A stretch of 64,000 nt of DNA from Perna viridis (GCA_037379345.1 CM074516.1:40461626-40525625); one strand, 5' to 3'; positions 21,201 through 24,200 are shown, counted from the stretch's first letter. The notes: generated from the letters alone by a model not told the origin. Numbers and translations: made by a program.

Positions 21201-24200
21201 GAAAGCACTCTAAATTTCAAAAGACAAATACATGTACAACAATTGCATCAAGTGTAAGTATTGCCTACACTTAAAACATTTAATATAAGTTTACCTGTCA
21301 ACTTGTTGTGATAATCCACATAGTGCCTGTGAAGCCTGAACAGCATTCAGTACACCTCCTCCTGTCAGGGACCTCTCCCATGCTGATTCTATCTTACTCT
21401 GATTTATCAAGTCAGGAATGTTTATCCTGGGAGCCACAGGTGTGGCAGCAGCTACTGGTATACCATACATATCATCCCTGAAACAGACATGCGTAAACAG
21501 TTGTGAACACACAATGACCCTGTCGACAAATGAAGAAGTCCATATTTTGCATCAGGAAATTCCAAAAGACATTCAGGCAGAAAAACAAAATAGGAGGTGC
21601 ACAATGGCATCATGTAATCAAGAATCTTTGAAAGTTTCATCAAATTCCTTTCAGTGGTTTCAGAGGTGTTGAGGATTAGAACAGGGGAAAGACGAATGGA
21701 CAAATAGGCACCGTTACCATGATATACCTCCCACTTTTCAAAAGTGGGGGGTATTATAACATTTCACTGTGATATTACTGTTTTATATTATACTGACATT
21801 AACACAATAAAAAAAGGTAATAGATGTACTTACTCATTGATAACATCCACTGTAGCTTGTTCATGTTGTAGTTTGGGTAGATTTGATTGGTTGTTTCCCT
21901 GACTAAAGTAGGTGTGTTCTAATTCTGATATAAATGCTGTACATCTGAAATTTTTGGAACAATTAACTATTTCAAGTGATATAACGAGTCATTTGCATTC
22001 TAAAAAAAAATAGTTCTAATATATTGTAACGAGAGAGCATGATTTGACTCCCAAAATTACACTCTGCCACCGAGGATCAAACCCTAGACCGCTCGGTGAC
22101 AAGCCAGCGACAAACCAATTAGGCTAAAGAATTAATCCTTTAGCCAAGTTAATTAACTAATTAATTAATTAATTATTTAAATCTCACTACCTACTACAAC
22201 TCAGGTAGGCCGTCCTGCCACATTTCCCCCACCTTAAGAGTCTCCGTACCATGCACTCTCCGTACCATGCACAACTCTAACACTAGCTCAATAGCTAACC
22301 AAACCCCATGGTTTTTTTACGTTGGGCGCCAAATGTAACGAGAGAGCATGATTTGACTCCCAAAATTATACTCTACCACCTAGGATCGAACCCTAGACCG
22401 CTTGGTGACAAGCCAGCAACAAACCAATTGGGCTAAAGAATTAATCCTTTAGCCCAGACAATTAACTGGCTATTTAAATCTCACTACCTACTACAATGCA
22501 GGTAGGCCGTCCTGCCACAATATATTTAAGGAACTAGAATAAGATAAAAATAGACTTCTATTGCCATACAATGTCATTGACCATAAGCTGAAAGAGTACA
22601 TTGTTTTTCCAATTACCTAAATAAATGTTTCCAACATTCTGCTGAGTGACTTCCCATCTCTAGACCTGTAGTCATCATTACATCCATACTGAGAACATGT
22701 GATGCATGTAATTTAACTGGTTTCTGTTTGGCACTGGATCCCTGTTTCCCTGGAAGTTTCCTCTCTAACATGGGACTTTTGGGTGTATGTAACATTACAC
22801 AAGAGGTAGTGGCTAGTTGCGAGAACACACTTCCACATCTCTGGGGCATACCTTTAAGATTAACAAGAAAGTGATGCTTGTTTTGCTATTACTTACCTGA
22901 TGTGCCTGGACAACAAGAAAATAGAGATTACATCCTGATTCTATTTCTAATTTTGTTTGAATTATGTAAACTAGTGAGAACATTAAAAAAATACTGTGAA
23001 AGCAATGAAGTTCAAACAAAAATTAAAGAACCTTAGTGAATGCACTCACATATCCCACATGTCCACATATTGGACACTCAAATAAAAAGTATTAGAAAAA
23101 AAGTAGTGTTTCAAAGGGCCTTAATTCATAGCCAATCTCAACGAAACATAAACTTCTTAAGTAATTCATCATGGTACATTGTAGAATCACATACCAAAAT
23201 CAGCTCAATATCTCAACATAACAATTTGGAAACTGTTATTCTAATGAAAATTGCTAAGTCCAAGGCCCGTAAAAATCAGTGAAGTGAAACAAAACGTAAA
23301 CTTGGTTCGCAAATCATCATGGTAGAATCACACACCAAAAAATCAGCTCAATATTCTGCAAGCGTTTAAAAAAAGTCCAGAAAATTAATGATGGACTGAC
23401 AGGTCAAAAACATTATTGCATGGTGTATAATTAAGCTTACTATTTCACATTTTTTAGGAAAACTTTGGGGCTCTGAAATAGGGCCATCTTATGTAAATCT
23501 CTAGATCCACCACTGCAAAATAGAAGTATTAACACCAGTATGAGCATGAACATCAAGAAAACAAAATTCGTTGTAATGAATCATGTATGTAAGTCTATAC
23601 ATGATAGTACTCTGTTTCACTTATGATAAGACATAAAGAAATACTTACCAAGAATACAGCAGAGTCTAGCAGCTTTCTGAAGCCCCTCCAGACTCATACA
23701 TATAGCTTCTCTGGCTCTGAAACTTTCCTCTTTGGCACCCTCTGTACCTAACATTAGAGCTATACTACTGGTAATTCCACAGGAATTCTTTCCATTTAGA
23801 AGTACAGATAATACATCTGATATACTATCCCAACAACGAGTCAAAATTCTCCTTGTAAACTTCTTTCCTGAAAAGAAGAATGTAGATTCAGTACAAAAGT
23901 ACAAAGTATCTATTTATGAATCATTTTTATTCTTATATGACCATAGTCAGAACCAACCTGAAAAAAAAATAAGATATATGATGAGCATGCTCACTTACCA
24001 AATGCTTCCTAATACATAGTGAAGATACTTATCCCCAGATTGTTCCAAATAAGAAGAGTTTTTCCAATCAACTACTGCTATGGAAGGGAAATAGTATATC
24101 GTATTTTCCGGACTGTAAATCGATACTTTTCTTTCAATGAAGTGTCAGCCTTGACTTAATCCATTTCGACTTATATAAGGATTTTTATGAATGTCCATCT

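What the first reader, a model, noticed from the sequence alone, without database searches (positions are those of the whole stretch)
22025..22519. Complete miniature LTR retroelement whose LTRs contain a tRNA-like Pol III promoter
Seen: 495 bp with LTR-PBS-PPT-LTR architecture, TG/CA ends, ATAT TSD and no ORF. Each LTR has, in sense orientation, an A box (TAGCCCAATTGG, 22424-22435 in the 5' LTR), an anticodon-loop-like TTGTCAC (GTC, Asp-like) and a B box (GGTTCGATCC, 22383-22392). The 3' LTR B box is mutated to GGTTTGATCC. A 9-bp hairpin GGGCTAAAG/CTTTAGCCC overlaps the A box. The PBS matches the 3' end of tRNA-Lys. Known: plant Cassandra TRIMs carry 5S sequence, and Helenus TRIMs carry tRNA-like LTRs with 4-bp TSDs in animals. 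Inference: a SINE-like, Pol III-driven parasite of a Gypsy-type partner that uses tRNA both as promoter and as primer. This family may be uncatalogued.
Basis: partly seen in the sequence, partly recalled or inferred. Interest (0 to 1): 0.72.

Follow-up and report, generated by a model that had tools for sequence, protein, structure and literature searches.

The report
Mussel-type Helenus mini-retrotransposon, hairpin pair
This is an old, decayed copy of a tiny gene-less jumping element whose end repeats carry a worn tRNA gene that likely served as its promoter, a kind published in 2024 as Helenus; the one extra is a pair of overlapping predicted hairpins at its likely start site that seems shared with relatives in shellfish, ribbon worms and fish.

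Summary
Window 22025-22519 (minus strand) is LTR-PBS-PPT-LTR with TG..CA ends and a 4-bp TSD. It belongs to a family of roughly 440 LTRs in this genome, with solo LTRs and tandem arrays. It is a Helenus TRIM (Kojima 2024). By eye it lies in the mytilid lineage of Helenus-1_MoPh/LimFor/MyCo and matches none of the 51 published bivalve families exactly, so it is a new family of a known kind. The family is old: median LTR-LTR distance 0.10, with CpG decay, which also explains the 3' B-box change. The 'Asp' call is not resolved. Pol III transcription is not shown; RNA reads look like passive read-through. Gypsy-type elements with the same tRNA-Lys PBS and a 4-bp TSD exist here, but none is a proven helper. 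By eye the palindrome recurs with changing centres in 33 of 51 bivalve, 17 of 18 vertebrate and 3 of 3 nemertean Helenus, and in both Ajax families. The paper does not mention it. It hints at one origin and a conserved RNA switch. Function untested.

The parts
22334..22519 (-). 5' LTR, 186 bp, TG..CA
22465..22472 (-). Segment 1 (LTR 48-55): pairs with LTR 62-70 to give predicted Stem I; upstream of the predicted start site
   Evidence: each of 8 pairs kept in 65-76 of 74-78 LTRs with letters; mean MFE -6.7 vs -1.5 kcal/mol shuffled
22429..22456 (-). Palindrome / predicted Stem II (LTR 64-91), 14 pairs with G.T pairs and a self-complementary centre; 3' arm covers TTT and the start of the A box
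22424..22435 (-). A box of 5' LTR
   Evidence: strict TRGCYNNNNYGG in 38 of 80 LTRs
22405..22411 (-). Anticodon-loop-like relic; isotype not resolved (Thr, Lys, Asp score alike)
22383..22392 (-). B box of 5' LTR, GGTTCGATCC
   Evidence: exact in 36 of 80
22362..22365 (-). T4 run after the B box, candidate leaky Pol III terminator; with its twin at 22053-22056 the only T>=4 run on the element's sense strand
   Evidence: (71 of 80 LTRs)
22319..22331 (-). Primer-binding site, 13 nt complementary to host tRNA-Lys-CTT 3' end with CCA, 2 nt after the LTR
22241..22272 (.). 16-bp tandem duplication private to this copy (internal 111 bp; 33 of the other 34 internal regions are 90-99 bp)
22223..22235 (-). 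Polypurine tract abutting the 3' LTR
   Evidence: 18 of 35 internal regions end in the same 14 letters
22025..22222 (-). 3' LTR, 198 bp; an AT-rich expansion has replaced segment 1; A box 22115-22126; B box 22074-22083 with a CpG transition; palindrome 22120-22147
22021..22024 (+). Target-site duplication ATAT, left
22520..22523 (+). Target-site duplication ATAT, right
22617..22851 (-). Host exon, ARFGEF3/BIG3-like; the element lies 97 bp behind its GT donor on the same strand (context, not part of the element)

Best explanation
This is a decayed copy of a multi-copy, gene-less LTR element of the Helenus type, which likely was copied from an RNA made by Pol III from the tRNA-like boxes in its 5' LTR, using enzymes likely borrowed from a Gypsy-type retrotransposon. 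Shown: the anatomy, about 440 LTRs, 4-bp TSDs, solo LTRs, tandem arrays, a PBS matching host tRNA-Lys-CTT, age, and Gypsy-type elements with the same PBS. Inferred steps: (1) TFIIIC on the A and B boxes would start Pol III about 12-20 nt upstream of the A box (spacing recalled), i.e. at LTR 65-73, the 5' arm of the palindrome; (2) some polymerases would read through the A-flanked T4 of the 5' LTR and cross the T4-free internal part, giving an RNA of at most about 370 nt in a typical copy; (3) the RNA would end in the 3' LTR, at the T4 or earlier at the short T tract in front of the A box; (4) it would be packaged in a helper particle, primed by tRNA-Lys and the PPT, and integrated with a 4-bp duplication. 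For the hairpins I commit to an RNA role: at the 5' end only the palindrome can form and would act as the dimer/packaging signal; in the 3' LTR segment 1 is present, so Stem I would form first, just as the polymerase crosses the short T tract, and help it stop. This copy and the family look inactive now.
For: Architecture and TSDs. Copy number: 269 exact 16-nt matches, word present in 36 of 59 sampled LTRs. Membership: criteria and close relatives in PMC10886601; Helenus-1_MoPh has the same 186-bp LTR length, 32 of the first 37 and 16 of the last 18 LTR letters (by eye). PBS; paper Fig. S2C lists the same PBS class for 21 bivalve families and Gypsy-125_CGi. Helper class: 21 genome matches to the longer PBS; L142 has 98.9% identical 1.3-kb LTRs, a 4-bp TSD and PR-RT-RH-IN order. 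Only two T>=4 runs on the sense strand, one per LTR. Stems; palindrome also in 7 of 12 older Helenus-like LTRs of this genome chosen by the A-box side only, against 9% in a control. Precedents: palindromes drive Ty1 RNA dimerisation (PMC6844567, abstract); RNA structure aids Pol III release at T tracts (PMC8501993, passage); Cassandra RNA has an 18-nt R.
Against: No Pol III start or end was seen: of 254 RNA reads laid, 243 were under 95% alike (other copies and other repeats), both orientations occur, reads run on past both LTR ends, the internal part has depth about 1.5, and no start or end pile-up exists (an ordinary cDNA library of an old family, so a weak test). A and B boxes are no better conserved than the rest of the LTR within the genome. 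The candidate Gypsy shares nothing with the TRIM beyond the PBS, is far younger (1% against 10% LTR divergence) and shows no Pfam gag domain in its long frame. In the full-length LTR the predicted end state keeps Stem II and pairs segment 1 elsewhere; in the four LTRs folded stepwise Stem I is lost by LTR 88-110, so it cannot simply hide the 3' palindrome. Stem I beats 95% of shuffles in only 2 of 12 older LTRs. Any hairpin with a self-complementary loop scores better as a dimer, so -44.6 against 2 x -16.2 kcal/mol is not evidence by itself. 18 of 51 bivalve families lack the palindrome, so it is not needed by every Helenus. Cross-species counts are by eye.
Confidence: 0.85

Rival explanations
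1. Same element, but the tRNA relic is a passenger: the TRIM is copied from Pol II RNA (own weak promoter or read-through from host genes), and the boxes are left-overs of a SINE that once landed in the LTR.
For: RNA reads look like read-through in both orientations; boxes not better kept than the rest within the genome; the paper says Pol III use is unvalidated for Helenus.
Against: Across published families the boxes are the conserved part of otherwise divergent LTRs; T>=4 runs are confined to the place after the B box; all Helenus are short.
Confidence: 0.1
2. The palindrome and Stem I have no function: they arose once by snap-back copying and are kept symmetrical by template switching during reverse transcription or replication (quasi-palindrome correction, recalled), which mimics compensatory change.
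For: 18 of 51 bivalve families lack the palindrome; Stem I weak in old LTRs here; no functional data.
Against: G.T pairs and one mismatch persist at the same places in the outer arm while the centre changes, whereas copy-correction should give perfect Watson-Crick symmetry; position relative to the A box is fixed across bivalves, nemerteans, fish and Ajax (by eye). This rival concerns the hairpins only, not membership.
Confidence: 0.35
3. A tandem dimer of a tRNA-derived SINE moved by a LINE.
For: tRNA-like A and B boxes in each repeat.
Against: TG..CA ends, fixed 4-bp TSDs (17 of 26 loci), PBS and PPT between the repeats, solo repeats with 4-bp TSDs (L035, L040, L052), no poly-A or simple-repeat tail.
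Confidence: 0.01

Closest known systems
Helenus-1_MoPh / -1B_MoPh (Modiolus philippinarum), Helenus-1_LimFor, Helenus-1_MyCo, -1 and -3_MyGa; Kojima 2024, PMC10886601 (read: main text parts 1-4 of 6, passages of the rest, supplement parts 1, 5, 6, 7, 9, 10, 11 of 11; figures not seen)
   Same: LTR 176-188 bp, internal 92-125 bp, 4-bp TSD, tRNA-Lys-CTT PBS followed by an A run, same PPT class, near-identical LTR ends, A and B boxes at the same place, same palindrome position.
   Different: No published consensus is identical; the tRNA-like middle and the internal part differ clearly (my estimate by eye about 70% over the LTR; not computed). The A box has drifted (TAGCCGAATCGG against TAGCTCANTCGG).
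Ajax (5S-bearing TRIM of nemerteans), same paper
   Same: By eye both Ajax LTRs carry the same two-stem layout and a tRNA-type A-box-like word right behind the palindrome.
   Different: Ajax has 5S promoter boxes instead of a B box, a tRNA-Leu PBS and 5-bp TSDs.
Cassandra (plant TRIM; PMC7215508, passages; described in PMC10886601)
   Same: Pol III promoter inside each LTR, tandem LTR-internal arrays.
   Different: 5S-derived, plants; Pol III transcription is validated there and not here.
biv-TRIM (Satovic et al. 2019, PMC6934838, passages)
   Same: Bivalve TRIM of similar size.
   Different: No canonical PBS; its inverted repeats lie in the internal domain, not in the LTR; the text has no mention of polymerase III.

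Membership tests
Helenus (TRIMp3) | Under 1000 bp, two LTRs, no protein genes | tested here: met
   495 bp
Helenus (TRIMp3) | tRNA-like sequence inside the LTR with box A (TRGCY..YGG) and box B (GGTTC) | tested here: met
   38 of 80 LTRs strict A box, 56 of 80 B-box core; z 4.6 against shuffled host tRNA-Thr, -Lys(TTT), -Asp
Helenus (TRIMp3) | PBS just behind the 5' LTR, complementary to a tRNA 3' end (Lys-CTT among bivalve types) | tested here: met
   14 of 35 internal regions carry the exact 11-nt match, most others 1-2 changes; host tRNA verified
Helenus (TRIMp3) | PPT before the 3' LTR | tested here: met
Helenus (TRIMp3) | 4-bp TSD in animals | tested here: met
   17 of 26 distinct loci, none 5 bp
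Helenus (TRIMp3) | tRNA-like part not a working tRNA | tested here: met
   ARAGORN 0 genes in the window; no Rfam tRNA match
Helenus (TRIMp3) | Transcribed by Pol III (proposed, unvalidated in the paper) | tested here: inconclusive
   one raw RNA run and three contig sets show read-through-like signal only
Helenus (TRIMp3) | Mobilised in trans by a Gypsy element (proposed) | tested here: inconclusive
   Gypsy-type elements share PBS and 4-bp TSD but no further sequence
A named Repbase family | Near identity to a catalogued consensus | tested here: not met
   none identical among the 51 bivalve families of DataS1, by eye; Repbase and Dfam themselves not searchable
tRNA-derived SINE (SINE2) | Single head-body-tail unit, simple-repeat or A tail, variable TSDs | tested here: not met
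Cassandra / Ajax | 5S rRNA-derived boxes in the LTR | tested here: not met
   no 5S match in Rfam at E<=10

The most novel reading that the evidence does not exclude
Helenus elements of bivalves, ribbon worms, coelacanth, sturgeons and carp-like fishes, and the 5S-bearing Ajax, descend from one ancestor (or spread sideways), marked by a conserved two-hairpin RNA switch in front of the A box. The switch lets the same LTR start Pol III at one end and stop it at the other, and offers a palindrome for dimer packaging into a borrowed Gypsy particle. Ajax would be a Helenus that swapped its B box for a 5S promoter, against the published idea of separate origins by SINE insertion.
Probability: 0.35. 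Interest if true: 0.6.

Novelty: new member of a known kind. Interest (0 to 1): 0.33.

Why it matters
As a family it adds one more mussel-type Helenus and is ordinary. The shared hairpin pair would matter more: it gives a concrete, testable answer to how a Pol III promoter inside identical LTRs can yield a terminally redundant RNA and how a gene-less RNA with no homology to its helper gets packaged, both left open in the Helenus paper. It also gives a marker that bears on whether animal Helenus arose once or many times.

Tried and rejected
ARAGORN and Rfam found no tRNA or other RNA family in the element (the 8 weak Rfam matches are far under their cut-offs). Isotype: host tRNA-Thr(AGT), -Lys(TTT) and -Asp(GTC) score alike; the search for a host tRNA-Thr(TGT) gave 10 matches against 11 in the control and was dropped. 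A search for more copies of L076, whose LTR end resembles the TRIM's, found 0 because my pattern had the wrong number of T; that element is broken and its two longest frames have no Pfam match. L068-L070 hold the PBS word in a 6.9-kb tandem unit without an LTR end and were set aside. No RNA holder was listed by the run search; not evidence. Empty site: none seen in contigs of three other samples; the flank-LTR junction is bridged in X5, borderline in X1 and covered by two overlapping contigs in X6, 27 loose ends were not shown, and only the flank with one LTR was laid, so absence is not proven. Summed contig depth over LTR words was about 600-700 times the flank, but the tool says this is no copy number. 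Literature: searches for Helenus, TRIMp3, family names, palindrome/dimerisation with TRIM, and bivalve TRIMs showed no paper on this hairpin; the Helenus main text has 0 hits for hairpin, palindrom and inverted. Its figures, supplement parts 2-4 and 8, Repbase entries and subscription journals were not seen. Wasp LTRs in parts 7 and 9 lack this motif, though several have a different looped hairpin ending just before the A box; fungal LTRs were not checked systematically.

Full report
1. What is there. On the minus strand, 22519 to 22025 reads LTR (186 bp), internal part (111 bp), LTR (198 bp), with TG..CA ends and ATAT on both sides. The PBS is complementary over 13 nt to the 3' end plus CCA of a tRNA-Lys-CTT gene that I fetched from this genome. 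This copy has private damage: a 16-bp duplication inside, an AT-rich expansion in the 3' LTR, and changed A boxes. It lies 97 bp behind the donor of an ARFGEF3/BIG3-like exon, on the same strand; the best protein match is from an oyster, so the host is probably a bivalve.

2. It is a family. A DNA search of the 723-Mb own genome gave 850 candidates, 40 scored, 54 matches. Among the 30 best loci, 26 are distinct after dropping four overlaps; 17 of 26 have an exact 4-bp TSD at the scripted ends (L022 doubtful), none has 5 bp, and five are tandem arrays of 3-6 LTRs. A 16-nt LTR word occurs 269 times against 0 for the control; it is present in 36 of 59 sampled LTRs, which gives about 440 LTRs, a lower bound. 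Among 26 distinct loci from the first 30 matches of that word, three are whole solo LTRs with 4-bp TSDs and one more is split by an insertion. This rules out a SINE dimer.

3. It is old. For 27 two-LTR elements the LTR-LTR distance has median 0.10 (0.032-0.157); the window copy has 0.081. CpG columns agree at 0.80 against 0.957 elsewhere. The B-box variants GGTTTGATCC (10 of 80) and GGTTCAATCC (7 of 80) are the two CpG transitions, so the 3' B-box change means nothing special. Outside CpG the boxes are no better kept than the rest of the LTR, as expected for dead copies. The insertion is seen in contigs of three other samples and no empty allele showed (weak test).

4. What it is. Kojima 2024 (PMC10886601; I read main-text parts 1-4 of 6, passages of the rest, and supplement parts 1, 5, 6, 7, 9, 10 and 11 of 11) defines Helenus as TRIMs with a tRNA-like sequence in the LTR, a PBS, a PPT and, in animals, 4-bp TSDs, with 51 bivalve families. 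Every defining feature that can be read from sequence is met. By eye the nearest families are Helenus-1_MoPh and -1B_MoPh, -1_LimFor, -1_MyCo and -1/-3_MyGa, all from mussels: the same LTR length, 32 of the first 37 and 16 of the last 18 letters shared with Helenus-1_MoPh, the same PBS and PPT class. None of the 51 is identical, so this is a new family in a known lineage; identity was not computed and Repbase was not searchable. The tRNA part is a relic: no ARAGORN or Rfam call, and host tRNA-Thr(AGT), -Lys(TTT) and -Asp(GTC) score alike (43.6, 40.9, 40.3; z 4.6 each; 56 of 80 LTRs used), so 'Asp-like' is open.

5. Helper. The longer PBS word occurs 21 times in the genome, mostly behind LTR-like ends of several unrelated families. 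One element has 1.3-kb LTRs at 98.9% identity, a 4-bp TSD and Gypsy-type domain order; two others carry RT, RNase H and integrase pieces in broken frames. These show that a Gypsy class with the right primer and TSD lives here. They do not name the helper: nothing beyond the PBS is shared and the ages differ.

6. Transcription. The only T runs of four or more on the sense strand lie after the B box of each LTR (kept in 71 of 80 LTRs), which fits a Pol III unit that must leak through once. One raw RNA run and three contig sets show LTR sequence of other copies in both orientations, running on past both LTR ends, with very little internal sequence and no start or end pile-up. That is read-through from host transcripts; it neither shows nor excludes a Pol III RNA.

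7. The hairpins. Its 5' arm begins where a Pol III start is expected (12-20 nt before the A box; recalled). An upstream segment, LTR 48-55, pairs with the same 5' arm (Stem I; mean -6.7 against -1.5 kcal/mol shuffled), so the two stems exclude each other; in stepwise folds of four LTRs Stem I holds while the RNA ends at 72-85 and has given way by 88-110. Copies of one family cannot show selection, so I looked at others. In 12 older Helenus-like LTRs of this genome picked by the A-box side only, the palindrome scores 75% or more in 7, against 9% of 5000 controls (the 12 are partly related); Stem I beats shuffles in only 2 of 12. In the published consensuses, by eye, the palindrome is present in 33 of 51 bivalve, 17 of 18 vertebrate (coelacanth, sturgeon, paddlefish, carp-like fishes; one partial) and 3 of 3 nemertean LTRs and in 2 of 2 Ajax LTRs, and absent from 3 brachiopod, 1 ctenophore and 1 plant LTR. 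Its centre takes more than ten different self-complementary forms while the outer arm keeps G.T pairs. Stem I was present in the 21 of these that I checked; I did not check all. The main text has no hit for hairpin, palindrom or inverted, it proposes several separate origins for Helenus and a SINE3 origin for Ajax, and my searches found no other paper on it.

8. Mechanism. Most likely: Pol III starts at the palindrome, leaks through the first T4, and stops in the 3' LTR; a Gypsy particle packages the RNA, tRNA-Lys and the PPT prime the two strands, and integrase leaves 4 bp. I put about 0.95 on Helenus membership, about 0.85 on the Pol III plus Gypsy model, and about 0.5 on an RNA function for the stems. 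Precedents exist for both proposed roles: 5' palindromes are needed for Ty1 RNA dimers (PMC6844567, abstract only), and RNA structure near a T tract aids Pol III release (PMC8501993, passage). If Stem I stops the polymerase at the short T tract, R would be about 15-20 nt, like the 18 nt reported for Cassandra. Against: the equilibrium fold keeps Stem II in the 3' LTR, a third of bivalve families lack the motif, and palindromes can be kept symmetrical by template switching without selection (recalled).

9. Verdict. A real, ordinary, inactive member of a kind described in 2024; this scan holds 218 earlier notes that name Helenus. The hairpin pair is the only part a specialist may not know. It rests on counts by eye and predicted folds, and it can be tested quickly. 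Other papers seen as passages only: PMC6934838, PMC11481361, PMC12859917, PMC7215508. Unread supplement parts 2-4 and 8 (fungal and wasp families) and the paper's figures may bear on how far the motif extends and on whether it was noticed.

Noticed in passing
window 22617-22851, minus strand: Exon of an ARFGEF3/BIG3-like gene, 68% identical to the oyster protein, present without differences in contigs of three runs guessed to be RNA; the element sits 97 bp behind its donor.
   Followed up: partly
window 23019-23155 and 23300-23400: Further repeats with many diverged RNA reads and loose ends; not identified.
   Followed up: no
L142:1702-9344 (G000:C5:5268701-5276343): Young Gypsy-type element: LTRs 98.9% identical, 4-bp TSD, tRNA-Lys PBS, one 1460-residue frame with PR-RT-RH-IN and no Pfam gag match.
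   Followed up: partly
L131-L141, L145-L163: At least one older, low-copy Helenus-like lineage in this genome with the same palindrome.
   Followed up: partly
L022 (G000:C2:3828700-3830240): Tandem array of six LTRs and five internal parts; arrays of 3-4 LTRs at L007, L010, L016, L018.
   Followed up: partly
L068-L070, L090 (G000:C6:16835000-16851000): A 6.9-kb unit repeated in tandem at 99.7% identity that holds a tRNA-Lys PBS-like word without an LTR end.
   Followed up: no
G000:C9:4452594-4533374, C6:28992243-29010160, C8:20315829-20356301, C10:41641347-41676103: Long tandem arrays of tRNA genes or tRNA-end motifs (927-, 1091-, 682- and 535-bp units). L121 has a TTT anticodon in a tRNA-Lys-CTT body.
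   Followed up: no
PMC10886601 supplement part 9, not this genome: The LTRs of Helenus-2_SyJa and -2_SyUm (gall wasps) hold what looks by eye like a hammerhead ribozyme core (motif recalled); the main text mentions hammerheads only in a reference.
   Followed up: no
X9 (organism B): A second organism label holds LTR and internal words of this family at 95% or more but not this flank.
   Followed up: no
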